A DNA stretch of 12,900 bases from the UHGV virus genome UHGV-0200016, one strand, 5' to 3'. The DNA comes from a virus. The notes beneath the pieces were generated by a model. The model saw only the letters and a program-made list of their open reading frames with translations. It searched no databases and was not told the origin of the DNA. The position numbers and the translations under genes are program-made. Shown piece by piece: positions 1 to 12,900 of the stretch (positions are counted from its first letter, which is position 1; each line of letters begins with the position of its first letter).

Positions 1-852
1 GTTTTCAAATTGTTCCGGACTGAGGCCGCCACACCAACTGTGCCGCCGCCACCGATTGTAATCACATTCGATATAATTAAACACCGTTGCCCGCATTATT
101 TCCCGGCTGATAAAGTGTTCTCCATGGATACATTCCACTTTCAGCGAATGAAAGAAGCTTTCCACGCAGGCATTATCGTAGCAGCAACCTTTTGCGCTCA
201 TACTTCCACGCAGATTATGCCGCTTCAGTTGCGCCTGATAATCTGCTGAACAGTACTGGCCTCCACGGTCCGTGTGAACGATAACGTTCCGGGGCCTCTT
301 ACGCCGCCACAGCGCCATCTGCAGGGCATCGCAGGCCAGTTGCGCCGTCATGCGTGGCGACATTGACCAGCCAATAACGGCACGTGACCACAGGTCAATG
401 ACCACTGCCAGATACAGCCAGCCTTCATCTGTACGTAAGTACGTGATGTCTCCTGCCCACTTCTGGTTCGGGCCACTGGCGTAAAAATCCTGCTCCAACA
501 GATTTTCTGACACAGGCAGGCCGTGTGCGCGGTAGCTGACCGGGCTGAACTTCCGGGAGGCCTTTGCCCTCAGTCCCTGACGGCGCAGGCTTGCCGCCAC
601 GGTTTTTACGTTAAAGGGGTAACCCTGAGCACGCAGTTCATCCGTCAGGCGTGGGGCACCGTAACGCTGTTTTGACCGGGTAAAAGCCGCGAGGACAACG
701 CTGTCGCAGTGTTGGCGGAACTGCTGACGCGTGCTTATCCTTGTCCGCCGCTGACACCACGTATACCAGCCGCTGCGGGCCACCCGGAGCACGCGGCACA
801 TTGCTTTGATGCTGAACTCAGCCTGATGTTTTTCAATAAAGACATACTTCAT
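1..852 (-). CDS. insF: IS3 transposase OrfB (InsF), 3'-partial (last few codons and stop lie before position 1)
   Basis: Minus-strand translation from the ATG at 852-850 gives [22 protein letters not shown]... and runs to ...[10 protein letters not shown] at the window edge, matching IS3 InsF as I recall it. It overlaps the orfA stop as expected for the -1 frameshift arrangement. It is absent from the ORF track because no stop lies in the window. Confidence 0.9.
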
Positions 853-1148
853 TTCAGGCGCTTCGCGAAGTATGTCGCGGCCTTTTGGAGGATAGCCAGC
901 TCTTCATCCCGTTCTGCCAGCTGGCGTTTGAGACGTGCAATCTCGGTAGACATCTCCAGTTCACGTTCAGAAGACGTCTGCTGATTTTGCTGTTTACTGC
1001 GCCAGTTGTAGAGCTGTGATTCATACAGGCTGAGTTCACGGGCTGCGGCAGTAACACCGATGCGTTCAGCAAGCTTCAGGGCTTCACTGCGAAATTCAGG
1101 CGAATGCTGTTTACGGGGTTTTTTACTGGTTGATACTGTTTTTGTCAT
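849..1148 (-). CDS. insE: IS3 transposase OrfA (InsE), 99 aa
   Basis: ORF track 849..1157 (minus) gives [34 protein letters not shown]...[15 protein letters not shown]. The canonical protein begins at MTKTVS (ATG at 1148-1146); the track begins at an upstream GTG. HTH-type IS3-family OrfA. Confidence 0.9.
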
Positions 1149-1269: not shown

Positions 1270-1296
1270 AAAAAATAAGCCCGTGTAAGGGAGATT
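1270..1296. other. attL core (P2 att core, 27 bp)
   Basis: Exact 27-mer AAAAAATAAGCCCGTGTAAGGGAGATT, identical to the copy at 11555-11581, lying 80 bp from the integrase stop. It matches the P2 att core as I recall it. Confidence 0.75.
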
Positions 1297-2918: not shown

Positions 2919-3527
2919 ATGAGCAAGCAAGTAACACTCATGACTGATGCGATTCCTTATCAGGAGTTCGCAAAACTAATAGGAAAATCGACAGGAGCGG
3001 TTCTCGGCGCGCGTCATATTCATATCACCAGAACGACGGACTGGCGCATTGTTCCGAAAGTTCCGGTCGTGGAGCCTTTAACTTTAAAAAGCGGCATCGC
3101 CGCGCCTCGGAGTCCTGTCAATAACTGTGGAAAGCTCACCGGTGGTGATACTTCGTTACCGGCTCACACACCTTCTGAGCACGCCGCAGCAGTGCTTAAT
3201 CTGGTTGATGACGGTGTTATTGAATGGAATGAACCGGAGGTCGTGAGGGCGCTCAGGGGGGCATTAAAACACGACCTGAGAACACCAAACCGTCAGCAAA
3301 GAAACGGAAGCCCGTTAAAACCACATGAAATTGCACCATCGGCCAGACTGACCCGGTCGGAAAGAATGCAAATTACCCGTATCCGCGTTGACCTTGCTCA
3401 GAACGGTATCAGGCCGCAGCGATGGGAGCTTGAGGCGCTGGCGCGTGGCGCGACCGTAAATTATTACGGGAAATCTTTCAATTATCAGGTCGCTGATGAG
3501 TGGCCTGGATTTTTGTTACCCATTTGA
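2919..3527 (+). CDS. cox N-terminus (about 28 codons) fused in frame to an unrelated 174-codon reading frame, possibly the 3' part of an early/replication gene; probable deletion product
   Basis: ORF track 202 aa. The first 28 residues, MSKQVTLMTDAIPYQEFAKLIGKSTGAV, match P2 Cox (a 91-aa protein). From about nt 3003 the sequence departs completely (LGARHIHITRTTDW...) and continues to 3527. SD agagga lies upstream of the ATG. Confidence 0.6.
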   Translation: MSKQVTLMTDAIPYQEFAKLIGKSTGAVLGARHIHITRTTDWRIVPKVPVVEPLTLKSGIAAPRSPVNNCGKLTGGDTSLPAHTPSEHAAAVLNLVDDGVIEWNEPEVVRALRGALKHDLRTPNRQQRNGSPLKPHEIAPSARLTRSERMQITRIRVDLAQNGIRPQRWELEALARGATVNYYGKSFNYQVADEWPGFLLPI

Positions 3528-3786
3528 GTAAAAATGCAGCGTGATTTTATATGCCTTTGAATGGATTATGCGAAGCGCCTCTAAGGCAGATGAGGAGCAA
3601 TAGCATGCTGAAGTAGAAGGCTAAATTGTATTGAATCGCTAGCATGTAATTTAAAGCAGCTATTTGATTCGAGTCATAAAAGAGCATCTATTTCGGCTAA
3701 TAAAACCATTGCGAGTGACCTTTTGTCGAAGCATAATTCATCTCGAGCGAAGTCTTGCTAGTCTTTCATCGGAATGATGACAGGCG

Positions 3787-3817
3787 CAAAAAAACCACCC
3801 TGGCAGGTGGTTTTTTT
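3787..3817. terminator. Bidirectional rho-independent terminator
   Basis: aaaaaaaccaccctggcaggtggttttttt: a GC-rich hairpin (ccaccctg/caggtgg) flanked by an A-run on the 5' side and a T-run on the 3' side, so it is terminator-like on both strands. Confidence 0.6.
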
Positions 3818-3829
3818 GTTTGAAGCATA

Positions 3830-3943
3830 CTAAAGAATAATACTTACATGGATATTACTGACGTTTACTGACAAACCACTTGGACTACCATATGGATAGC
3901 CAAAGAGGGCCAGAACGAGAATGCAGTAATAGCACTTCTTCAT
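3830..3943 (-). CDS. Hypothetical small hydrophobic protein, 37 aa (below ORF-track cutoff)
   Basis: Minus-strand ATG at 3943 preceded by a strong SD (caggaggagat-ATG). Translation is MKKCYYCILVLALFGYPYGSPSGLSVNVSNIHVSIIL, with stop at 3832-3830 immediately followed by the terminator at 3787-3817. Coding status is unproven. Confidence 0.3.
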   Translation of the reverse strand: MKKCYYCILVLALFGYPYGSPSGLSVNVSNIHVSIIL

Positions 3944-4518
3944 ATCTCCTCCTGTAAGCAGAGGGCAATTTCCGCCGATATATGCGCTTCTAAGGCGGAG
4001 TTACTATTTAGCGAAGTCTTGCCCTGAAATAATGCTCTGTTTAAACGCAAAGTGATCTGGCATATCACCGAACAGAGAGCCTGAACAACACAACATATAG
4101 TATGTCGTTGTTTCTGGTTGCATTTTATGTTGTGTAATCCTGGTTTTGCATCAAGGATGTTTGAGCTTTTTTTGATATAGCTCAAAGTAAAAAGCAGAGA
4201 CTACGGATGATAAGGTATTGAAAGCAATGTAAATTTTTTAAAGTTATTGGCGGCTAAAAAATGCACGGTTTCAATATGGTGGACTTAAATAAGCAATTAA
4301 AAAAGTCATAAATATCACTAAAATCATGGTGTTACGTTTTTTTTGTGGGAGCTGCGGTGACGCTTAAGTTGATTTGTCATTAAATAAGCCGTGCATGCAA
4401 CAAGTGAATGTTTTTGCATGCGTCGGGGATGCCCGTTCCGGCTGCTTGCGGTCAGAGCTGGTGCGGATCCATAGTATCTATGCAACTGCATTAAAACCGC
4501 CACATGAAGCGGGCGGGC

Positions 4519-4537
4519 GAGGCGGGGAAAGCACTGC
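4519..4537. other. P2-type cos site (19-nt cohesive-end sequence)
   Basis: ggcgaggcggggaaagcac matches the P2/186 cohesive-end sequence as I recall it. It sits in a GC-rich island of about 165 bp (roughly 4380-4545) between AT-rich segments. Confidence 0.6.
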
Positions 4538-4694
4538 GCGCAAAATGTTCTTGAAATATTTGTGACATAAGCTAAGACACAAAATGATTGAAGGGCAGAG
4601 CAAATCCTACAGTCCTATGCTATTGTCTCATGTAATGCAGATAAGTTGAAAATTATCTTAAAATATAAGAGTAAAGACATTAAAAGGATTGGTT

Positions 4695-6956
4695 ATGAAT
4701 AATAACTCTAAGTTATTAAGCTCTATCTCGGTTGAATCTGATTTCGAGAACCTTATAAAACTATATGCAAATGAGTTATTTGGTGGTGAAACATATCTGA
4801 TCGGTGGTCCTTGGGATAATGGAAAGGATTTGGTAATAAAAAAGGGGAATAGAGAGTTAAAGCAAGCTGTACAAATATCTATTCAAGAGAAAAATATTGA
4901 AAGTAAGATTGCTCAAGATATTAAAAAAGTGGCGAAATTGGTTGATGATCATTATTACCCGCCTGTATTATATTTTTTTTGGAGTCATTCAATATCTGAG
5001 CATTTATTGGATAAGATAAGAACAAATGCTCTTAAGGAAGATTTGATTAGATTGGAGTTTTATGATGCCAAACGGATCTCTCAAGATATTACAGATAAAT
5101 ACCCAGGGTTATTGAATTACTTAATAAAAGATATACATAAGATAAGTTCTAATACTGAAGATGCAATTAACTTGCAACAAAGAGCATTTTATGAATATTT
5201 ATTGTTAAGCAAAGATAGTGCTAATTTAAAAAATGAAATAATAAAAGCTAGTATTATGTCTAATTTATATGATGGCGGGAAGTCTGCTGATGATATTCTA
5301 GAGAATCTAAAAGGTGTTAGTCTTACAAAACGTAGTTTACAGGGTAGACTGCAAAACCTAATTCATCAAAATAAAATTAGATTGAATGATGGTATATATA
5401 GCCTGTCACCAGAGGAAATTAAAAAGCTTGAGAATATAAATCTCCGTGAAATTGTCAGAAAAGAAGAGTTGTTATCAGTAATAAATAATGAGTTGCCCAG
5501 AAATACAAGTAAGAATCTGGCTGTTCAAGTTGTTGATTTAATAATAAAGGCTTATGAAGAATCAATAAATGTCCAATTAACAGAAAGTAAATTTGAGCCT
5601 CCAAAATTACAGATATTCAAAACTATAGTACATAATTTAAAGGTGTTGATACGGCAGGAATATGATTTGGATGATGAGTCTTCGGATGCTTTAGCAAAAA
5701 AGCTAATGGAGTTGGCTGGTCAAAATGACTATTTATCCGAGCATTGCTCTGCTAAATTATGTGTGAATCTTTTAAGTGATCGGAAATTAGAGAAATATAT
5801 TGAAAATAAAAATTTTTATATCTACTTTGATGCGCCTGTTCTTATTCCATATTTGATAACTCTTATGTTTGGAGATTTTGAGCTTTTTGATAAGTCGATT
5901 AAAAATATAAATTTACTGAGAGAGTGCATAAATCCCCTCAAAAATAAACATCTGAGAGTTTCTAATGAACATTTTGAAGAAACTGCAAGGCACTACTCTG
6001 AAGCTGAAAAATTAAGTCAGTTTGTAACTGAAGATTTAATTAGTCAACTTGGTGAGTCGAAAAATGTATACTTTAATGTTTATATGCGGTGGAAAAACAA
6101 ACAGCCTAAACGTACAGATTTTTACGATTTTACTTATGCTTTTCTAGGGTTGGATAAAGATGATATTTATGCGGGGTATAAGCATGACACATTTGCGCAA
6201 TGCATTCATAATTTACTAGCGTCAGCAAATATTGTTGTAATTGATAATAAAGACTCGGTGTCACAAGACTTTGTATTTAAAATAAAGCAAAAACTTAAAA
6301 GGGATTTGAATTCTTCACGTCCCGTTCGAGCCATAGAAAATGATGTTATATGTGCTGCAACTTTGAGTGATGAAACCCTACATCTTGATTCCAATGGTTA
6401 CTTCAGTACTCCCATGCTAATAACGCTTGATAGATCTCAATATCTATTGAGAAGCATAGTAAGAAATGAAAGGAGACATGCTGAATGGTTGGTTTATACC
6501 CCTCAAAGAGCAATTGAACGTCTTTCCTTGGTGGGTTTAAAAATATCATCGGAATCGTTAAAGGATGGTGTTTTAGCAACCATATCAGAAGAATATTTCT
6601 TTAAAGAAAGTTCCAGTAGTTTGATTGATACTTTGGCTATTATCATTGGAGATAATCAAGCAAGGCAAGGAGATGTTATTAGGCTTGCATCGCTTTTAAA
6701 AAGAAAGGTCAATGAGGAATCTATTGAGAATTCAGAAATTGATATTGAACACTATAATAACATTAGTTATGTGCTTCTTTTCATTCATCGTGAATTTAAA
6801 TCTGAATTTTCAAATATAATAAAAATTTTTGCTGAGGATAGTAGGCGAGATAAACTGGTTGAAGTTTTGTTATCCACTATTCAAGGAGTTTTTGATGAGA
6901 GTAAAAAGGAAATCTTGCGCTCAAATATAGGACGGTTGTTGGCTGAAATGGGATGA
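4695..6956 (+). CDS. Hypothetical protein of about 753 aa with an N-terminal restriction-endonuclease-like (Mrr-type) motif; candidate anti-phage defence protein
   Basis: ORF track 4689..6956 (755 aa from a TTG). I prefer the ATG at 4695, which has SD aagga 6 nt upstream. The gene is strongly AT-rich and Lys/Asn/Ile-rich, unlike the flanking P2 genes. Residues about 25-100 (FENLIKLYANELFGGETYLIGGPWDNGKDLVIKKGNRELKQAVQIS...PVLYFFWSHSIS) resemble the Mrr catalytic-core pattern. A hairpin terminator follows at 6973-7005. Confidence 0.85.
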   Translation: MNNNSKLLSSISVESDFENLIKLYANELFGGETYLIGGPWDNGKDLVIKKGNRELKQAVQISIQEKNIESKIAQDIKKVAKLVDDHYYPPVLYFFWSHSISEHLLDKIRTNALKEDLIRLEFYDAKRISQDITDKYPGLLNYLIKDIHKISSNTEDAINLQQRAFYEYLLLSKDSANLKNEIIKASIMSNLYDGGKSADDILENLKGVSLTKRSLQGRLQNLIHQNKIRLNDGIYSLSPEEIKKLENINLREIVRKEELLSVINNELPRNTSKNLAVQVVDLIIKAYEESINVQLTESKFEPPKLQIFKTIVHNLKVLIRQEYDLDDESSDALAKKLMELAGQNDYLSEHCSAKLCVNLLSDRKLEKYIENKNFYIYFDAPVLIPYLITLMFGDFELFDKSIKNINLLRECINPLKNKHLRVSNEHFEETARHYSEAEKLSQFVTEDLISQLGESKNVYFNVYMRWKNKQPKRTDFYDFTYAFLGLDKDDIYAGYKHDTFAQCIHNLLASANIVVIDNKDSVSQDFVFKIKQKLKRDLNSSRPVRAIENDVICAATLSDETLHLDSNGYFSTPMLITLDRSQYLLRSIVRNERRHAEWLVYTPQRAIERLSLVGLKISSESLKDGVLATISEEYFFKESSSSLIDTLAIIIGDNQARQGDVIRLASLLKRKVNEESIENSEIDIEHYNNISYVLLFIHREFKSEFSNIIKIFAEDSRRDKLVEVLLSTIQGVFDESKKEILRSNIGRLLAEMG

Positions 6957-6972
6957 TTTCTTGGTTATTGAA

Positions 6973-7005
6973 CGGCACTATGGTCGTTGCTTATAGTGCC
7001 GTTTT
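6973..7005 (+). terminator. Rho-independent terminator downstream of the AT-rich gene
   Basis: cggcactat-ggtcgttgctt-atagtgccg followed by tttt: a 9-bp stem with an 11-nt loop, 17 bp after the stop codon. Confidence 0.55.
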
Positions 7006-7047
7006 AAGGTGTCGTGCCATTATGAATGGCATATCCGAGTTTATATA

Positions 7048-8082
7048 TTAGGTATCGCAAGTATCTAGTGAGTAGTTTTTAAAGCGGATGACCTCCTGAC
7101 CGAGCCAGCCGTTTATCTCGCGGATCCTGTCCTGTAACGGGATAAGCTCATTGCGGACAAAGACCTTTGCCACTTTCTCAATATCGCCCAGTGACCCGAC
7201 GTTCTCCGGCTTGCCGCCCATCAACTGAAAGGGGATGCGGTGCGCGTCCAGTAGGTCAGCGGCGCTGGCTTTTTTGATATTAAAAAAATCGTCCTTCGTT
7301 GCGACTTCACTGAGCGGGATAATTTTAATGCCGTCGGCTTTCCCCTGTGGGGCATAGAGAAACAGATTTTTAAAGTTGTTGCGGCCTTTCGACTTCACCA
7401 TGTTTTCGCGGAGCATTTCGATATCGTTGCGATCCTGCACGGCATCAGTGACGTACATGATGTATCCGGCATGTGCGCCGTTTTCGTAATACTTGCGGCG
7501 GAACAGCGTGGCCGACTCATTCAGCCAGGCAGAGTTAAGGGCGCTGAGATATTCCGGCAGGCCGTACAACTCCTGATTAATATCCGGCTCCAGCAGGTGA
7601 AACACGGAGCCGGGCGCGAAGGCTGTCGGTTCGTTGAAGGACGGCACCCACCAGTAAACATCCTCTTCCACCCCACGGCGGGTATATTTTGCCGGTGAGG
7701 TTTCCAGTCTGATGACCTTACCGGTGGTGCTGTAACGCTTTTCCAGAAACGCATTACCAAACACCAGAAAATCCAGCACAAAGCGGCTGAAATCCTGTTG
7801 TGAAAGCCACGGATGCGGGATAAATGTCGAGGCCAGAATATTACGTTTGACGTAAATCGGTGAGCTGTGATGTACGGCAGCACGCAGGCTTTTTGCCAGA
7901 CCGGTAAAGCTGACCGGTGGCTCATACCATCTGCCGTTACTGATGCACTCGACGTAATCCAGAATGTCACGGCGGTCGAGTACCGGCACCGGCTCACCAA
8001 AGGTGAATGCCTCCATTTTCGGGGCGCTGGCGGTCATTGTTTTTGCCGCAGGTTGCGGTGTTTTCCCTTTTTTCTTGCTCAT
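7048..8082 (-). CDS. Q: P2 portal (capsid portal) protein Q, 344 aa
   Basis: ORF track 344 aa: MSKKKGKTPQPAAKTMTASAPKMEAFTFGEPVPVLDRRDILDYVECISNGRWYEPP... It matches my recollection of P2 gpQ in sequence and length, and its start overlaps the stop of the upstream P fragment (TGATG). Confidence 0.9.
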   Translation of the reverse strand: MSKKKGKTPQPAAKTMTASAPKMEAFTFGEPVPVLDRRDILDYVECISNGRWYEPPVSFTGLAKSLRAAVHHSSPIYVKRNILASTFIPHPWLSQQDFSRFVLDFLVFGNAFLEKRYSTTGKVIRLETSPAKYTRRGVEEDVYWWVPSFNEPTAFAPGSVFHLLEPDINQELYGLPEYLSALNSAWLNESATLFRRKYYENGAHAGYIMYVTDAVQDRNDIEMLRENMVKSKGRNNFKNLFLYAPQGKADGIKIIPLSEVATKDDFFNIKKASAADLLDAHRIPFQLMGGKPENVGSLGDIEKVAKVFVRNELIPLQDRIREINGWLGQEVIRFKNYSLDTCDT

Positions 8083-8360
8083 CAGTAAAACTCCAGAATG
8101 GTGGATGTCAGCGGGGTGCTGATACCGGCGGTGAGTGGCTCATTTAACAGGGCGTGCATGGTCGCCCAGGCGAGGTCGGCGTGGCTGGCTTCCTCGCTGC
8201 GGCTGGCCTCATAGGTGGCGCTGCGTCCGCTGCTGGTCATGGTCTTGCGGATAGCCATAAACGAGCTGGTGATGTCGGTGGCGCTGACGTCGTATTCCAG
8301 ACAGCCACGGCGGATAACGTCTTTTGCCTTGAGCACCATTGCGGTTTTCATTTCCGGCGT
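8082..8360 (-). pseudogene. P: 3' fragment of terminase ATPase gene P (about 90 C-terminal codons); the 5' part is deleted
   Basis: A minus-strand open frame ends at 8082 (...LTAGISTPLTSTILEFY) with its stop overlapping the Q start, as for P2 P-Q. P is about 590 aa in P2, so only the 3' end is present. Assignment rests on synteny and coupling, not on confirmed homology. The upper boundary is approximate. Confidence 0.5.
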
Positions 8361-9245
8361 GTACCCGCACCGGATGTGGTCGAGGAGCTGGACTTTGAAA
8401 CCATTCTTGCCGAACGCAAGGCGACACTGATTTCCCTTTACCCGGAAGACCAGCAGGAGGCGGTCGCCCGTACCCTGACGCTGGAATCTGAGCCTCTCGT
8501 CAAACTGCTGGAGGAAAATGCTTATCGTGAGCTTATCTGGCGTCAGCGTGTGAATGAGGCCGCACGGGCGGTGATGCTGGCCTGTGCTGCCGGTAATGAC
8601 CTTGATGTGATTGGTGCCAATTACAACACCACGCGCCTGATTATCACCCCGGCAGATGATTCGACTATCCCGCCGACACCGGCAGTGATGGAGTCTGACA
8701 CCGATTACCGGCTGCGTATTCAGCAGGCGTTTGAAGGTTTAAGCGTCGCCGGGTCGGTGGGTGCCTATCAGTATCATGGCCGCAGTGCCGACGGGCGTGT
8801 CGCGGATATCTCTGTCACCAGTCCGTCTCCGGCCTGTGTCACCATCTCTGTGCTGTCACGTGAAAATAACGGTGTCGCTTCCGAAGACCTGCTGGCGGTG
8901 GTGCGTAACGCCCTTAATGGCGAGGACGTCAGGCCGGTGGCCGACCGCGTGACCGTGCAGTCTGCCGCCATCGTTGAATACCAGATAAACGCCACGCTGT
9001 ATCTTTACCCTGGTCCCGAAAGCGAACCCATTCGCGCTGCCGCCGTGAAAAAACTGGAAGCGTATATCACGGCACAGCACCGGCTGGGGCGCGACATCCG
9101 TCTGTCTGCCATTTATGCCGCTTTGCATGTGGAAGGCGTACAGCGTGTCGAACTGGCTGCACCGCTGGCCGACATCGTGCTCAACAATACGCAGGCGTCT
9201 TTCTGTACCGAATACCACGTCGTGACCGGAGGCTCGGATGAGTGA
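8361..9245 (+). CDS. J: Baseplate assembly protein J, apparently missing its first roughly 10 codons and its native start and promoter
   Basis: ORF track 8154..9245. From VPAPDVVEELDFETILAERKATLISLYPEDQQEAV... onward it matches P2 gpJ as I recall it. The 70 codons upstream in frame (MHGRPGEVGVAG...) are antisense to the P fragment and are not J-like. Confidence 0.75.
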   Translation, partial: VPAPDVVEELDFETILAERKATLISLYPEDQQEAVARTLTLESEPLVKLLEENAYRELIWRQRVNEAARAVMLACAAGNDLDVIGANYNTTRLIITPADDSTIPPTPAVMESDTDYRLRIQQAFEGLSVAGSVGAYQYHGRSADGRVADISVTSPSPACVTISVLSRENNGVASEDLLAVVRNALNGEDVRPVADRVTVQSAAIVEYQINATLYLYPGPESEPIRAAAVKKLEAYITAQHRLGRDIRLSAIYAALHVEGVQRVELAAPLADIVLNNTQASFCTEYHVVTGGSDE

Positions 9246-9849
9246 TTCGCGACTGCTGCCGACCGGCTCATCACCGCTTGAGGTCGCCGCCGCAAAAGCC
9301 TGTGCGGAAATTGAAAAAACGCCGGTCAGTATTCGTGAGTTGTGGAACCCGGACACCTGCCCGGCAAATCTGCTGCCGTGGCTGGCGTGGTCATTTTCGG
9401 TTGACCGCTGGGATGATAAGTGGCCGGAAGCGACAAAACGCGCTGTTATCCGCGATGCGTATTTCATTCACTGCCATAAGGGCACTATTGGTGCGATTCG
9501 CCGTGTGGTGGAGCCACTCGGCTATCTGATTGAGGTGAGGGAGTGGTGGCAGCTCAACGAGGAGCCGGGGACGTTCCGTATCGTTGTCGGCGTGCTTGAG
9601 CAGGGTATTACCGAGGAAATGTATCAGGAGCTGGAGCGCCTCGTTGCTGATGCAAAACCGGCAAGCCGCCATCTGACGGGACTGGCTATCAGTTTAAGTA
9701 CAACCGGCAACATTTTTGCCGGTGCGGGATGCTATCACGGCGACGCCCTGACGGTTTATCCCTACACCCCGGAGGCCATTATTGTCGGAGGGGATTATTT
9801 CCCGGCCTCGGCCATTCATTTAATTGATAACCTGAGAGTAAACGCATGA
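9238..9849 (+). CDS. I: Baseplate protein I (P2 gpI-like), 203 aa
   Basis: ORF track 203 aa: MSDSRLLPTGSSPLEVAAAKACAEIEKTPVSIRELWNPDTCPANLLPWLAWSF... The ATG overlaps the J stop (ATGA) and the stop overlaps the next gene's start, giving the J-I-H order of P2. Confidence 0.85.
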   Translation: MSDSRLLPTGSSPLEVAAAKACAEIEKTPVSIRELWNPDTCPANLLPWLAWSFSVDRWDDKWPEATKRAVIRDAYFIHCHKGTIGAIRRVVEPLGYLIEVREWWQLNEEPGTFRIVVGVLEQGITEEMYQELERLVADAKPASRHLTGLAISLSTTGNIFAGAGCYHGDALTVYPYTPEAIIVGGDYFPASAIHLIDNLRVNA

Positions 9850-11153
9850 CAGTGAAATACTACGCCATTCTGACTAATCAGGGCGCAGCACGGCTGGCTA
9901 ACGCGACGATGCTCGGCAGTAAGCTGAATCTGACGCAAATGGCCGTTGGTGATGCGAATGGTGTATTACCGACACCAGACCCGGCACAGACAAAACTGAT
10001 TAACCAGAAACGCATTGCACCGCTGAATATTCTGAGCGTTGACCCTAACAATCAGAGCCAGATTATTGCGGAGCAAATTATCCCTGAAAACGAGGGAGGA
10101 TTCTGGATCCGTGAGATTGGGCTTTATGATGATGAAGGCGTACTCATTGCGGTGGCGAACTGCCCGGAAACGTACAAACCGCAGTTGCAGGAAGGCAGTG
10201 GTCGTACCCAGACTATCCGCATGATTCTGGTTGTCACGAATACCGAAGCTATTACGCTGAAAATCGACCCGTCGGTGGTACTGGCGACCCGTAAATACGT
10301 GGATGATGAAGTCCTGGAATTAAGGCTGTATGTGGATGAACAGATGAGAAACCACATTGCCGCACAGGATCCTCATACCCAGTATGCACAGAAACATAAT
10401 CCGACATTTACCGGAGAACCAAAAGCGCCGACGCCTGCCGCAGGAAATAACACCACGCGGATTGCGACCACTGCGTTTGTACAGGCTGCTATTACCGCTC
10501 TGATTAACGGCGCGCCAGCCACGCTGGACACACTGAAAGAAATTGCCGCGGCCATTAACAATGACCCGAAATTCAGCACCACCATTAACAATGCGCTGTC
10601 AGGTAAGCAGCCACTGGATGAGACGCTGACTCATTTGAGTGGAAAGGATGTTGGAGCCTACACCGGCGTAACGGCAAAGTGGTTACACACCAAAGACCCG
10701 AAGCCGCAAAAGCAGAAGGTAAAACTGAAACGCAAAAAGAAAGAGAAACACCTGCGCGCACTGGAGCACCCGAAAGCGAAACCGGTCAGGCAGAAGAAAG
10801 CGCCAAAAGTACCGGAAGCGCGCGAAGGTGAATACATGGCCGGTGAGGCTGACAACGTTTTTGCCCTGACCACGGTATATGCCACGAAAGCACAGGCCAT
10901 GCGTGCTGCTCAGGCGAAGTGGGATAAACTGCAACGGGGCGTTGCGGAGTTCTCCATCATCCTGGCTACCGGTCGTGCAGATATTTACACGGAAACACCG
11001 GTCAGAGTGTCAGGCTTTAAGCGCGTCATAGACGAGCAGGACTGGACAATCACTAAGGTGACACATTTTCTGAATAATAGCGGCTTCACGACGTCCTTGG
11101 AGCTTGAGGTCAGGCTTTCTGATGTGGAGTACGAAACAGAAGATGATGAGTGA
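9846..11153 (+). CDS. Chimeric ORF: tail-fibre H-like N-terminal domain (about 270 aa) fused to the C-terminal part of tail protein D; deletion product
   Basis: ORF track 435 aa. The N-terminus (MTVKYYAILTNQGAARLA...GGFWIREIGLYDDEGVLIAVANCPETYKPQLQEGSGRTQT...) has the P2 gpH-type tail-fibre N-terminal signature. The C-terminus (...PVRVSGFKRVIDEQDWTITKVTHFLNNSGFTTSLELEVRLSDVEYETEDDE) is the gpD end that immediately precedes ogr in P2. A Lys-rich linker lies between. G, Z/fun, FI, FII, E, T, U and most of D are absent. Confidence 0.65.
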   Translation: MTVKYYAILTNQGAARLANATMLGSKLNLTQMAVGDANGVLPTPDPAQTKLINQKRIAPLNILSVDPNNQSQIIAEQIIPENEGGFWIREIGLYDDEGVLIAVANCPETYKPQLQEGSGRTQTIRMILVVTNTEAITLKIDPSVVLATRKYVDDEVLELRLYVDEQMRNHIAAQDPHTQYAQKHNPTFTGEPKAPTPAAGNNTTRIATTAFVQAAITALINGAPATLDTLKEIAAAINNDPKFSTTINNALSGKQPLDETLTHLSGKDVGAYTGVTAKWLHTKDPKPQKQKVKLKRKKKEKHLRALEHPKAKPVRQKKAPKVPEAREGEYMAGEADNVFALTTVYATKAQAMRAAQAKWDKLQRGVAEFSIILATGRADIYTETPVRVSGFKRVIDEQDWTITKVTHFLNNSGFTTSLELEVRLSDVEYETEDDE

Positions 11154-11234
11154 TGTTTTGTTTTTATCTGTTTGTTTTATAAGGATAAATTAACTAAAAT
11201 GGCACCATTAACAAAACCGGAAGAGGTGCTCGCG

Positions 11235-11453
11235 ATGTTTCATTGTCCTTTATGCCAGCATGCCGCACATGCGCGTACAAGCCGCTATATCACTGACACG
11301 ACAAAAGAGCGTTATCACCAGTGCCAGAACGTGAATTGCAGCGCCACGTTCATCACTTATGAGTCGGTACAGCGATACATCGTGAAGCCGGGAGAAGTCC
11401 ACGCCGTGAGGCCGCACCCGTTGCCGTCAGGGCAGCAAATTATGTGGATGTAA
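11235..11453 (+). CDS. ogr: P2 late-gene transcriptional activator Ogr (zinc-finger), 72 aa
   Basis: MFHCPLCQHAAHARTSRYITDTTKERYHQCQNVNCSATFITYESVQRYIVKPGEVHAVRPHPLPSGQQIMWM with the C-x2-C...C-x4-C zinc finger. The ORF track begins 21 codons upstream (11172), but the canonical start is the ATG at 11235. Confidence 0.9.
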   Translation: MFHCPLCQHAAHARTSRYITDTTKERYHQCQNVNCSATFITYESVQRYIVKPGEVHAVRPHPLPSGQQIMWM

Positions 11454-11464
11454 TTACAAACAGA

Positions 11465-11490
11465 AAGCCCCTCAGTCGAGGGGCTTTTTT
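11465..11490 (+). terminator. Rho-independent terminator of ogr
   Basis: aagcccctc-agtc-gaggggctt followed by tttt, 12 bp after the ogr stop. Confidence 0.7.
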
Positions 11491-11495
11491 GTCGA

Positions 11496-11514
11496 TGTGG
11501 TCAATGTGTGGACG
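11496..11514. promoter_or_regulatory. Direct repeats TGTGGTCA / TGTGGACG; probable Int arm-type binding sites (P' arm)
   Basis: tgtggtca at 11496-11503 and tgtggacg at 11507-11514, 11 bp apart, mirroring the pair at 1385-1404 on the int-proximal arm. Confidence 0.45.
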
Positions 11515-11554
11515 TGACCAGAAATAAATCCTTTTATTTCAATTTGTTGTACGT

Positions 11555-11581
11555 AAAAAATAAGCCCGTGTAAGGGAGATT
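11555..11581. other. attR core (P2 att core, 27 bp)
   Basis: Exact copy of AAAAAATAAGCCCGTGTAAGGGAGATT, followed by AT-rich non-phage DNA leading into the convergent host gene. Confidence 0.75.
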
Positions 11582-11725
11582 ACACAGGCTAAGGAGGTGG
11601 TTCCTGGTACAGCTAGCATTTTATGGGTTATGTTTTTCAGCGAAACGGATGATAACCTTAATAAATGCAGCTGTATGTGATCGGTTTCTAAGAATTTTCC
11701 ATCCGGGAAAAATAATCGAAATTAA

Positions 11726-12900
11726 TCACTTACCGTGTGGGTTACGCGTGGTTTCCCCGGAGAAATTACGCATCAGCAGAGCGTAATTGAGCTCAAGATC
11801 CTGCGGGACCGGGAGCCACACAGTATAACCATCGCCTGGTGCGACCGGCATCGCTTCACCTTTGGCGTTTTCCATGTGCTCAAGGGTAAAGTTAATGTTG
11901 CCTTGCGGCGTCATCAGCTCAAGGCTGTCGCCAACGGAGAATTTATTTTTCACCGCTACCGCCGCGAGGTCCCCCTTGCGCTCACCGGTAAACTCACCAA
12001 CAAACTGCTGGCGGTCAGAAACTGAATAACCGTATTCGTAGTTCTGATAATCGTCGTGAGTATGACGACGCAGGAAACCTTCGGTATAGCCACGATGCGC
12101 CAGACCTTCCAGAGTTTCCAGCAGGCTGGTATCGAACGGTTTGCCCGCAGCGGCGTCATCGATAGCTTTACGGTAAACCTGTGCGGTGCGTGCGCAATAG
12201 TAGAAAGATTTAGTACGGCCTTCGATTTTCAGCGAATGCACGCCCATTTTGGTCAGGCGTTCTACATGGGCGATGGCGCGCAGATCTTTCGAGTTCATGA
12301 TGTAAGTGCCGTGCTCATCTTCAAACGCGGTCATATACTCGCCCGGACGCTGGGCTTCTTCGATCATAAACACTTTGTCGGTTGGCGCGCCGATACCCAG
12401 CGTCGGCTCAACATTTTGCACCGGAATCGGCTCGTACTTGTGTACGATGTTGCCAACGTCATCTTCTTTCCCTTCCTGGACGTTGTACTCCCAGCGGCAG
12501 GCGTTGGTGCAGGTACCCTGGTTCGGATCGCGCTTGTTGATATAGCCAGAGAGCAGGCAGCGACCGGAGTAGGCCATGCACAGTGCGCCGTGAACGAAGA
12601 TCTCGATCTCCATATCCGGCACCTGATTGCGGATCTCTTCAATCTCTTCCAGCGACAGCTCGCGAGAGAGGATCACGCGGGTCAGGCCCATTTGCTGCCA
12701 GAATTTCACCGTCGCCCAGTTTACGGCGTTAGCCTGCACCGAGAGGTGGATCGGCATTTCAGGGAAGTGCTCACGCACCAGCATAATCAGCCCTGGATCG
12801 GACATAATCAGCGCATCCGGCCCCATTTCCACCACCGGTTTCAGGTCACGGATAAAGGTTTTCAGCTTGGCGTTGTGCGGTGCAATGTTGACCACGACAT
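11726..12900 (-). CDS. yegQ: U32-family peptidase-like protein (YegQ/TrhP-like), 5'-partial (N-terminus beyond window end)
   Basis: ORF track 389 aa: ...EIFVHGALCMAYSGRCLLSGYINKRDPNQGTCTNACRW... contains the U32 peptidase signature (E-x-F-x2-G-[SA]-[LIVM]-C-x4-G-x-C-x-[LIVM]-S). It is convergent with ogr, as yegQ is with ogrK in E. coli K-12. Gene symbol is from recollection and synteny. Confidence 0.8.
   Translation of the reverse strand, partial: VVVNIAPHNAKLKTFIRDLKPVVEMGPDALIMSDPGLIMLVREHFPEMPIHLSVQANAVNWATVKFWQQMGLTRVILSRELSLEEIEEIRNQVPDMEIEIFVHGALCMAYSGRCLLSGYINKRDPNQGTCTNACRWEYNVQEGKEDDVGNIVHKYEPIPVQNVEPTLGIGAPTDKVFMIEEAQRPGEYMTAFEDEHGTYIMNSKDLRAIAHVERLTKMGVHSLKIEGRTKSFYYCARTAQVYRKAIDDAAAGKPFDTSLLETLEGLAHRGYTEGFLRRHTHDDYQNYEYGYSVSDRQQFVGEFTGERKGDLAAVAVKNKFSVGDSLELMTPQGNINFTLEHMENAKGEAMPVAPGDGYTVWLPVPQDLELNYALLMRNFSGETTRNPHGK

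What the first reader, a model, noticed from the sequence alone, without database searches (positions are those of the whole stretch)
4546..7047. Orphan AT-rich 2.3-kb gene between cos and Q: candidate single-gene anti-phage defence protein with an Mrr-like N-terminus
Seen in sequence: one uninterrupted ORF (4695-6956) dominates a roughly 2.5-kb block whose base composition (AT-rich, Lys/Asn/Ile-rich protein) contrasts sharply with the GC-balanced P2 genes on either side. The block begins within a few bp of the cos site and ends just before the Q stop. The gene has its own SD (aagga, 6 nt before the ATG at 4695) and its own hairpin terminator (6973-7005), and is convergent with Q, so it does not depend on phage late transcription. 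The N-terminal segment reads ...GGPWDNGKDLVIKKGNRELKQAVQIS...PVLYFFWSHSIS, which resembles the Mrr/type IV restriction-endonuclease catalytic core (D-x-G-x-D-L-[IV] ... [VL]-Q-x-K ... hydrophobic strand then S-x-[ST]) as I recall it, but the lysine of the Q-x-K element is displaced (LKQAV rather than VQCK), so catalytic competence is uncertain. The remaining 600-odd residues have no motif I can assign. Two R-x4-H motifs occur (RVSNEH at nt 5955-5972; RNERRH at nt 6462-6479, the latter of the R-N-x3-H form common in HEPN RNases), but R-x4-H can arise by chance. Established knowledge: P2-like prophages carry exclusion and defence genes (old and tin in P2) in the variable region between the replication genes and Q, and such hotspots are a rich source of new systems. 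Inference: this is a horizontally acquired defence or exclusion gene that may explain why this crippled remnant is retained. I cannot assign it to a named system from sequence alone.
Basis: partly seen in the sequence, partly recalled or inferred. Interest (0 to 1): 0.88.

Follow-up and report, generated by a model that had tools for sequence, protein, structure and literature searches.

The report
Uncharacterised two-nuclease prophage defence candidate
A foreign, AT-rich gene in the known defence hotspot of a decayed P2-like prophage encodes an untested 753-residue protein with a divergent Mrr-type nuclease domain, a winged helix and an invariant PIN nuclease core, making it a good but unproven candidate for a new single-gene anti-phage system.

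Summary
One intact ORF (4695-6956, 753 aa, GC about 0.31) fills a 2.5-kb cargo block (about 4551-7059) between the P2 cos site (4516-4534) and the portal gene Q. It has the stated SD and 3' hairpin.

The family has 499 representatives at 50% identity. Its N-terminal module is swapped for DUF4062 (a validated TIR-like NADase effector) or a HEPN-like domain, while the PIN core stays constant. The gene is always solitary, AT-rich, and in prophage or island cargo slots.

It matches no PADLOC, Pfam or NCBIfam model and is not related to the validated PIN systems DS-3 and DS-5. It was already catalogued as "hypothetical" (Rousset 2022) and as a "predicted novel defense gene" (DefensePredictor, log-odds 13.06). 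It has never been tested.

The parts
4516..4534 (.). P2-type cos core GGCGAGGCGGGGAAAGCAC. It is the left landmark of the hotspot.
   Evidence: Read directly. The same sequence is found 179 nt upstream of the identical gene in IMG/VR loci L014 and L015.
4551..7059 (.). Variable cargo block, AT-rich, replaced by other cargo or nearly empty in other P2-like prophages.
   Evidence: blastn against L002 (about 175 bp between the flanks) and L003 (a different 334-aa cargo). GC profile. 2,154 genomes match only the flanks and 1 matches the block. No flanking direct or inverted repeats.
4684..4688 (+). Shine-Dalgarno AAGGA, 6 nt upstream of the ATG.
   Evidence: Sequence read.
4695..6956 (+). CDS of the 753-aa protein (WP_053286240.1), stop codon included.
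   Evidence: AF2 model with pLDDT 82.3 and pTM 0.71.
4695..5099 (+). Residues 1-135: divergent Mrr-type PD-(D/E)xK domain. Motif G38-x2-D41-x-G43-x-D45 ... K56-x3-Q60-x-S62 ... K71, D75, K78. The canonical lysine is replaced by Ser/Thr.
5172..5408 (+). Residues about 160-238: winged helix-turn-helix, with near-invariant K179 and L237.
5409..5786 (+). Residues 239-364: helical linker of unknown role.
   Evidence: Secondary structure of the model. No fold or family match.
5787..6539 (+). Residues 365-615: PIN-like nuclease domain with acidic quartet D379, E429, D550, D579 (plus T577, N457, P603). A helical insertion of roughly 100-120 residues lies between E429 and D550.
6540..6953 (+). Residues 616-753: C-terminal helical bundle (D645 near-invariant), role unknown.
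   Evidence: Model secondary structure. Conservation.
6970..7032 (+). Two 3' hairpins (6970-7004 followed by UUUU; 7014-7032) between the convergent stop codons. Probable terminator(s).
   Evidence: RNA fold -30.1 kcal/mol, z -4.13.
7048..8082 (-). P2 portal gene Q, convergent with the cargo gene. It is the right landmark of the hotspot.
   Evidence: RefSeq annotation 'phage portal protein'.

Best explanation
The block is phage-borne cargo carrying one self-contained anti-phage defence gene.

The protein is a modular nuclease. A constant chassis (winged helix, helical linker, PIN nuclease with a large helical insertion, C-terminal helical bundle) is fused to an exchangeable N-terminal enzymatic module. 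Here that module is a divergent Mrr-type PD-(D/E)xK domain.

Proposed mechanism (inferred, not shown):
1. The protein is held inactive in uninfected cells by intramolecular occlusion. There is no antitoxin partner.
2. On infection, the winged helix and helical regions recognise a phage nucleic acid or protein cue.
3. The PIN active site, which is obligatory in every family member, then cleaves nucleic acid. RNA is the likelier substrate by analogy with VapC-type PINs.
4. The N-terminal module adds a second, lineage-specific activity: DNA binding or cleavage here, NAD+ hydrolysis in DUF4062 variants, RNA cleavage in HEPN-like variants.
5. The outcome is either loss of phage nucleic acid or abortive infection.

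Shown: gene integrity, cargo status, the three folds, active-site conservation, module swapping, solitary context.
Inferred: the defence function, the trigger, the substrate, and the division of labour between the two nuclease domains.
For: Position. It lies in the gpA-cos-gpQ hotspot of P2-like phages, which Rousset et al. 2022 showed to be a reservoir of defence systems. This exact protein is listed there as the sole cargo of two loci. The same slot is occupied in an intact Rahnella P2/186-like prophage and in IMG/VR prophages. Other homologues sit beside integrases, after tail-fibre genes, downstream of ssrA, or next to DndB, DUF5677 or HEPN_LA2681 genes.

Composition. GC is 0.28-0.33 in every host, against flanks of 0.42-0.59.

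No partner. No conserved neighbouring gene appears in any context.

Folds. Mrr-type, winged helix and PIN.

Conservation. The PIN quartet is conserved in 104-105 of 105 members, and it stays intact in members whose N-terminus is swapped or lacks the acidic triad.

Module swapping. The N-terminus is replaced by DUF4062 (E 4e-5 and 6e-5) or by a helical domain carrying an R-N-x2-3-H motif (one HEPN_Apea hit at E 0.0033). DUF4062 is an experimentally shown NADase effector of the single-gene defences Swarozyc and Evangelion.

Independent prediction. DefensePredictor gives a log-odds of 13.06 against a stringent cut-off of 4, and labels it 'Predicted novel defense gene'.

Precedent. DS-3 is a validated one-protein PIN defence with no antitoxin, and its catalytic mutants lose defence.
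Against: There is no experimental test of this protein or of any family member.

It matches no PADLOC model and no phage record.

The Mrr-like site lacks the canonical catalytic lysine throughout the family, so that domain may not cleave DNA.

The PIN assignment rests on fold, topology and motif. Sequence support is one sub-threshold PIN_12 hit and no PIN hit in the PDB profile searches.

No promoter was identified: promoter-like sites are no more frequent than in shuffled sequence.

Two viral-contig copies are frameshifted.

The hotspot also carries non-defence cargo, such as partition systems.
Confidence: 0.55

Rival explanations
1. It is a type IV-like (modification-dependent) restriction enzyme. 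The winged helix reads modified phage DNA, the Mrr-like domain is the sole DNA-cutting effector, and the PIN-like domain is a structural or regulatory scaffold.
For: Mrr-type fold. HHblits hit to a type IV Mrr protein at 97.1%. An Mrr catalytic domain plus a winged helix is the domain pair of Mrr itself (established knowledge). D41, D45 and Q60 are strongly conserved.
Against: The catalytic lysine is Thr/Ser in 95 of 105 members, and none of 113 members has Q-x-K. The Mrr-like module is replaced by non-DNase modules, or lacks the acidic triad, in some lineages, while the PIN quartet never varies. An invariant four-acid site is hard to explain for a mere scaffold.
Confidence: 0.12
2. It is not an anti-phage defence. 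It could be a selfish addiction or toxin module, or a phage-beneficial moron (for example host takeover, exclusion of satellites, or a nucleic-acid processing enzyme) carried in variable slots.
For: PIN domains are classic toxins (VapC hits). The hotspot also carries non-defence cargo. In the Rousset study only a bit over a third of the cloned hotspot systems showed activity. Some copies are solitary in core-gene neighbourhoods with no phage genes nearby.
Against: There is no antitoxin-like partner in any context. The modular swapping with DUF4062 and HEPN-like effector domains is typical of immune proteins. The DefensePredictor score is very high. The gene co-occurs with other defence-type genes.
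Confidence: 0.2
3. It is a decaying or inert passenger gene of a dead prophage with no current function.
For: The prophage is heavily deleted. Two homologues in viral contigs are frameshifted. This locus occurs in only 1 of 5,426 complete E. coli genomes.
Against: The ORF is intact and 100% identical to copies in more complete prophages. Full-length conservation and invariant catalytic residues extend across 499 representative clusters. The SD and terminator hairpins are preserved.
Confidence: 0.05

Closest known systems
Mrr / type IV restriction endonuclease catalytic domain (Pfam Mrr_cat PF04471; structural neighbours AspBHI, AF1548, and the N-terminal nucleases of Avs4 and LlaBIII)
   Different: The lysine of Q-x-K is Thr/Ser family-wide. 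No member reaches the Pfam threshold (best E 0.0037). The domain is N-terminal and is followed by, not preceded by, the winged helix. It is one of several interchangeable N-terminal modules.
VapC-type PIN nucleases (toxins of VapBC toxin-antitoxin systems) and Pfam PIN_12
   Different: There is no VapB-like antitoxin. The domain is embedded in a 753-aa protein. It carries a helical insertion of roughly 100-120 residues between the second and third acidic residues. No significant sequence match exists to any PIN model or PDB chain; one member gives only a sub-threshold PIN_12 hit.
DS-3 and DS-5 (DefensePredictor, Science 2026): experimentally validated E. coli PIN-based defence systems
   Same: DS-3 is a single-protein PIN defence without an antitoxin, and its PIN is interrupted by a large helical insertion. 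DS-5's PIN_12 protein is also cargo of the P2 hotspot. In both, PIN catalytic mutants lose defence.
   Different: No detectable homology: hhalign probability is 0.5% against a 20-sequence DS-3 profile and 0.6% against DS-5's PIN protein. DS-3 is 340 aa and has no Mrr-like or winged-helix domain. DS-5 needs a second protein.
Swarozyc / Evangelion (DUF4062 TIR-like NADase single-gene defences, 2026 preprints)
   Same: The design principle is the same: one polypeptide with an N-terminal enzymatic effector coupled to a C-terminal region that contains a winged-helix or HTH fold. Some members of the present family carry DUF4062 exactly where this protein has its Mrr-like domain.
   Different: This protein has no DUF4062. 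The Swarozyc and Evangelion auxiliary regions are not reported to contain a PIN domain (zero or one mention of 'PIN' in those texts). Whether the DUF4062-bearing relatives found here fall within those named families was not tested.
Shedu (SduA)
   Same: A single-protein immune nuclease in which a constant nuclease core is regulated by diverse N-terminal domains (abstract seen). This is the closest logical analogue for a constant PIN core with a variable N-terminus.
   Different: The Shedu core is a DUF4263 PD-(D/E)xK nuclease, not a PIN. There was no PADLOC Shedu hit.

Membership tests
Mrr / type IV restriction endonuclease (Mrr_cat) | PD-(D/E)xK alpha/beta fold of the Mrr type | tested here: met
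Mrr / type IV restriction endonuclease (Mrr_cat) | Significant match to the Pfam Mrr_cat profile | tested here: not met
   No hit for the window protein at E <= 10. 13 of 60 relatives match only weakly (best E 0.0037). A published HHblits search gives 97.1% probability, so the homology is remote.
Mrr / type IV restriction endonuclease (Mrr_cat) | Catalytic D ... (Q/E)-x-K triad | tested here: not met
   D45 (93 of 105) and Q60 (87 of 105) are present, but the K position is Ser here and Thr/Ser in 95 of 105. None of 113 Mrr-like members has Q-x-K.
Mrr / type IV restriction endonuclease (Mrr_cat) | Cleavage dependent on DNA modification | not testable with these tools
   Needs biochemistry or phage assays.
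PIN domain nucleases (VapC-like) | PIN fold (parallel beta-sheet with flanking helices) | tested here: met
PIN domain nucleases (VapC-like) | Four conserved acidic residues forming the metal site | tested here: met
   D379 in 104 of 105; E429, D550 and D579 in 105 of 105; T577 as T/S in 105 of 105. Their positions fit PIN topology. Superposition onto VapC catalytic residues could not be inspected because no coordinates were available.
PIN domain nucleases (VapC-like) | Significant sequence match to a PIN profile | tested here: not met
   No Pfam or NCBIfam PIN hit for the window protein. One relative matches PIN_12 end to end at E 0.0055, 17.5 bits against a cut-off of 32.
VapBC toxin-antitoxin system | Adjacent cognate antitoxin gene (VapB) | tested here: not met
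   No conserved neighbour in the contexts examined.
   H426 is Tyr in 99 of 105 and R590 is variable. Both motifs lie inside the alpha/beta PIN fold. A HEPN-like domain does occur in some paralogous family members, but as an N-terminal replacement.
DS-3 / DS-5 (validated PIN defences) | Sequence homology to the DS-3 or DS-5 PIN protein | tested here: not met
   hhalign probability 0.5% (profile against profile) and 0.6%.
Any system in PADLOC-DB v2.0.0 | Match to a PADLOC model | tested here: not met
   Zero families at E <= 10. Later DefenseFinder and PADLOC releases could not be run here.
P2 cos-proximal hotspot cargo (Rousset et al. 2022) | Located between gpA and gpQ, next to cos, and variable among otherwise homologous prophages | tested here: met
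   The protein itself is listed in their Table S5A.
Anti-phage defence system (functional class) | Reduces phage plaquing or burst when expressed | not testable with these tools
   Prediction only: DefensePredictor log-odds 13.06. It was not found in the tested-systems tables of Rousset 2022 or among the DS systems listed.

The most novel reading that the evidence does not exclude
This protein is the founding example of an unnamed, widespread defence family (499 clusters at 50% identity). The family is built on a constant winged-helix and PIN chassis that accepts interchangeable N-terminal effectors: a lysine-less Mrr-like domain, a DUF4062 NADase, or a HEPN-like domain. In this reading the invariant PIN site is more than a second toxin. 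It is the sensing or licensing step: it processes a phage nucleic-acid cue and that switches on whichever effector is attached. This would be a nuclease-gated immune switch of a kind not described for single-protein systems.
Probability: 0.2. Interest if true: 0.75.

Novelty: new variant of a known kind. Interest (0 to 1): 0.55.

Why it matters
If the gene protects against phages, it would add a new single-gene family to the defence catalogue, with a domain combination (Mrr-like, winged helix, PIN) that I did not find described in the literature searched.

The family also offers a natural experiment in effector swapping. DNase-like, NADase and RNase-like heads sit on one chassis, which could show how single-polypeptide immune proteins couple sensing to killing without an antitoxin or an NTPase switch.

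It would supply an experimental case for two open points. One is what a PD-(D/E)xK domain does when its catalytic lysine is systematically replaced. The other is whether embedded PIN domains in defence proteins cut RNA or DNA.

Practically, the gene is a compact (2.5 kb), self-contained cassette with native signals. It is already flagged by a machine-learning predictor, so a test would be cheap and decisive.

Tried and rejected
- HEPN reading of RVSNEH and RNERRH: rejected. The motifs are unconserved and lie within the PIN fold.
- Direct profile searches of the protein (Pfam, PADLOC, NCBIfam, PHROGs): nothing significant.
- tblastn against 50,697 phage records: no match.
- Sequence-profile searches of the PDB: no nuclease hit, only a weak winged-helix hit.
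- Foldseek of the full-length model against the PDB: no hit at E <= 0.001. The multi-domain query gave only scattered winged-helix and restriction-enzyme leads.
- AFDB50 fold search: library unavailable.
- Homology to the validated PIN defences DS-5 and DS-3: rejected by hhalign, including a purpose-built DS-3 family profile.
- Transposon or IS origin of the block: no flanking repeats.
- Non-coding RNA in the block: no Rfam hit there.
- A sigma-70 promoter upstream of the gene: no convincing site, and matches are no more frequent than in shuffles.
- The idea that the gene explains retention of the crippled prophage: not testable. This deletion architecture is unique to one complete genome.
Full report
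**1. The observation**

The window carries a 10.3-kb remnant of a P2-like prophage in E. coli strain 1218KP. From left to right it holds int, a C-type repressor, a 3' fragment of gene A, cos, the gene in question, portal gene Q, a stub of P, then J, I, a tail-fibre fusion and ogrK.

The reported ORF is real and uninterrupted (4695-6956, 753 aa, WP_053286240.1). GC falls to 0.28-0.35 across it, against 0.48-0.59 in the late genes. The P2 cos core GGCGAGGCGGGGAAAGCAC is at 4516-4534.

Comparison with two other P2-like prophages fixes the variable block at about 4551-7059. Homology runs through cos and stops within 7-16 nt. It resumes 12 nt inside the 3' end of Q. One comparator has only about 175 bp there, and another has a different 334-aa gene.

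The SD (AAGGA, 6 nt before the ATG) and the hairpin (6970-7004, then UUUU) are as described. With a second hairpin they fold at -30.1 kcal/mol, z = -4.1. All quoted peptides are at the stated coordinates.

**2. What the protein is**

No profile library recognises it. Pfam, PADLOC, NCBIfam and PHROGs give nothing significant, and so do 50,697 phage records.

A word-indexed search of 5.8 billion proteins finds only 46 clusters. All are unnamed and lack Pfam domains, and they come from Rahnella, Erwinia, Serratia, Klebsiella, Enterobacter, Pantoea, Pectobacterium, Vibrio, Aeromonas, Shewanella and Pseudomonas. An exhaustive profile search widens this to 499 representatives at 50% identity, mostly 750-790 aa.

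- PIN: VapC15 9.1 and VapC21 9.0.

**3. Conservation**

In 105 diverse members (about 20% identity to the query), the invariant or nearly invariant residues are D379, E429, D550 and D579, with T577, N457 and P603.

The four acids sit at the end of beta1, at the start of the helix after beta2, in a helix after beta3, and in a T-x-D turn after beta4. From my knowledge of PIN domains, this is the PIN metal-site pattern. The family consensus reads LDTxxL ... ExxxH ... NDxxxxxxL ... PxxxTWDxxF. A helical insertion of roughly 100-120 residues separates E429 from D550.

The N-terminal motif is also strongly conserved: D41 in 91, G43 in 89, D45 in 93, Q60 in 87, K71 in 89 and D75 in 88 of 105. However, the position of the canonical Q-x-K lysine (residue 62) is Thr/Ser in 95 of 105. 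Among 113 full-length Mrr-like members none has Q-x-K. A Lys/Arg four residues upstream (K56) is present in 86 of 105.

Mrr_cat matches 13 of 60 members weakly (best E 0.0037). An independent published HHblits search reports a type IV Mrr hit over 18.3% of this very protein at 97.1% probability.

The two R-x4-H motifs are not conserved. H426 is Tyr in 99 of 105 and R590 is variable. Both lie inside the PIN fold, so the HEPN lead fails for this protein.

**4. Module swapping**

A minority of relatives match the profile only from about position 150 and carry other N-terminal domains.
- Two to three have DUF4062 (E 3.9e-5 and 6.3e-5 on the isolated segments, just under the Pfam cut-off).
- Seven have an N-terminal region of about 190 aa with a conserved R-N-x(2,3)-H-N-S-P motif. 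I take this region to be helical, but I ran no structure prediction for it. One of the seven hits HEPN_Apea at E 0.0033.
- About six have an N-terminus that I read by eye as alpha/beta and that lacks the D...D...Q triad.

All of these keep the PIN quartet.

DUF4062 has just been shown to be a TIR-like NADase effector in the single-gene defences Swarozyc and Evangelion. In those systems it is coupled to variable auxiliary sensor regions, and the Swarozyc one has an HTH/winged fold that binds the phage portal.

Swapping of DNase-like, NADase and RNase-like heads on one chassis is the pattern expected of an immune effector slot. The absolute constancy of the PIN site, even where the head looks inactive, argues that PIN catalysis is the obligatory step.

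**5. Context**

The gene is always solitary.
- It occupies the same cos-Q slot in an intact Rahnella P2/186-like prophage.
- It occupies the same slot in two IMG/VR prophage contigs that encode the 100%-identical protein. Those contigs have about 3.6 kb more DNA between int and the A C-terminus, so their early region is more intact. The gene was therefore phage cargo before this copy decayed.
- A 64%-identical homologue sits on the other side of cos, in the old/tin position (L018).
- Elsewhere it lies next to integrases or resolvases, after tail-fibre genes, at the cI edge of a 186-like prophage, in an islet downstream of ssrA, beside DndB/DUF5677 or HEPN_LA2681 genes, or alone between baeR and trhP in Enterobacter.

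In every host its GC is 0.28-0.33 against flanks of 0.42-0.59. No partner gene recurs. No transposon-like repeats flank the block, and no Rfam family lies within it.

**6. Prior knowledge**

Rousset et al. 2022 defined the gpA-cos-gpQ region of P2-like phages as a defence hotspot. Their Table S5A lists WP_053286240 twice as the sole 'hypothetical' cargo. I did not find it in their tables of tested systems.

DefensePredictor (Science 2026) lists it in Table S10, among 1,041 uncharacterised predicted clusters. Its mean log-odds is 13.06 against a stringent cut-off of 4, with the label 'Predicted novel defense gene'. It was not among the DS systems listed, which came from 69 other strains.

Their validated PIN systems are different proteins. 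DS-5's PIN_12 protein and a 20-sequence DS-3 family profile both give hhalign probabilities below 1% against this family. I found no paper describing an Mrr-like, winged-helix and PIN architecture.

**7. Mechanism**

My best reading, at confidence 0.55, is a self-contained defence nuclease.
- The winged helix and helical parts recognise an infection cue.
- The PIN site is the obligatory catalytic engine. RNA is the likelier target by analogy with VapC, but DNA is not excluded.
- The Mrr-like head is an exchangeable second module. Its lysine-less site may bind or cut DNA non-canonically.
- Autoinhibition must be intramolecular because there is no antitoxin. The PIN insertion and the C-terminal bundle are candidates for this.

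Everything beyond folds, conservation and context is inference.

Rivals:
- A type IV-like enzyme in which only the Mrr-like domain cuts (0.12). The missing lysine and the invariant PIN site weaken it.
- A non-defence toxin or moron (0.2).
- An inert passenger (0.05). Full-length conservation argues against it.

**8. Verdict**

The main correction is that the best-conserved and probably central element is a PIN nuclease domain preceded by a winged helix. The HEPN hints are chance.

Novelty is moderate. The domain types and the hotspot are well known, and the gene has already been flagged computationally. The family, its architecture and its effector swapping are, as far as I could find, undescribed and untested.

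Interest is 0.55: a strong, cheap experimental candidate rather than a surprise.

Noticed in passing
window 1270-1296 and 11555-11581 (CyaR at 11558-11643, minus strand): A perfect 27-nt direct repeat, AAAAAATAAGCCCGTGTAAGGGAGATT, brackets the whole prophage remnant (10.3 kb). I take it to be attL/attR. The right copy forms the 3' end (terminator) of the host sRNA CyaR (Rfam RF00112, 100.7 bits), so the phage integrated into the cyaR 3' end and regenerated it. Enterobacter locus L010 has a single copy of the site.
   Followed up: yes
window ~8082-8376 (P stub / J junction): The terminase P gene is reduced to a short stub abutting baseplate gene J, so the capsid, lysis and most tail genes are deleted. 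This junction is found in one continuous piece in only 1 of 5,426 complete E. coli genomes (the source strain). Two other genomes cover the query in two pieces and have different junctions.
   Followed up: partly
window 9846-11153: A 435-aa ORF annotated 'tail-collar fiber domain-containing protein' appears to be an in-frame fusion of a tail-fibre (H-like) N-terminus to an unrelated, Lys/Glu-rich C-terminal part. It marks another internal deletion of the prophage. I did not analyse it.
   Followed up: no
window 2919-3527: A 202-aa ORF whose C-terminal ~175 residues are the end of replication gene A (RefSeq: pseudogene, missing N-terminus). The cox-B-A early region is deleted here but appears to be present in IMG/VR contigs L014 and L015, which carry the identical cargo gene.
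   Followed up: partly
window 1-1148 (minus strand): An IS3-family element (OrfA-like ORF at 849-1157; RefSeq 'IS3 family transposase, programmed frameshift') sits just outside attL, next to the prophage integrase.
   Followed up: no
L010 8001-10271 (Enterobacter cloacae complex): A 54%-identical homologue sits alone between baeR and trhP, with no cos-like site and no similarity to the window's P2 sequences nearby. This is the same chromosomal neighbourhood as the E. coli remnant, but on the other side of trhP. How it got there is unexplained.
   Followed up: partly
L018 (IMG/VR UViG_2508501071_000003) 6001-8247; cos-like at 8961; Q at 10996-12009: In this P2-like prophage a 64%-identical homologue lies between gene A and cos (the old/tin side). 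About 2 kb of other sequence lies between cos and Q. The same gene family therefore uses both sides of cos.
   Followed up: partly
L021 4054-6359 and L022 5965-8270: Two viral-contig homologues (41-43% identity) are split into two ORFs each, probably by frameshifts. The L022 copy is next to a HEPN_LA2681 gene (E 4e-31) and phage replication genes.
   Followed up: partly
family members P0165, P0174, P0177, P0179, P0182, P0188, P0190 (N-terminal ~190 aa): These relatives replace the Mrr-like head with an N-terminal region of about 190 aa, apparently helical, bearing a conserved R-N-x(2,3)-H-N-S-P motif. One gives a weak HEPN_Apea hit (E 0.0033).
   Followed up: partly
window 3528-4515: About 1 kb of AT-rich sequence (GC 0.35-0.44) lies between the A fragment and cos, with no ORF over 81 aa. 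It is conserved at 98.8% in another P2-like prophage (L003). Its function is unknown.
   Followed up: no
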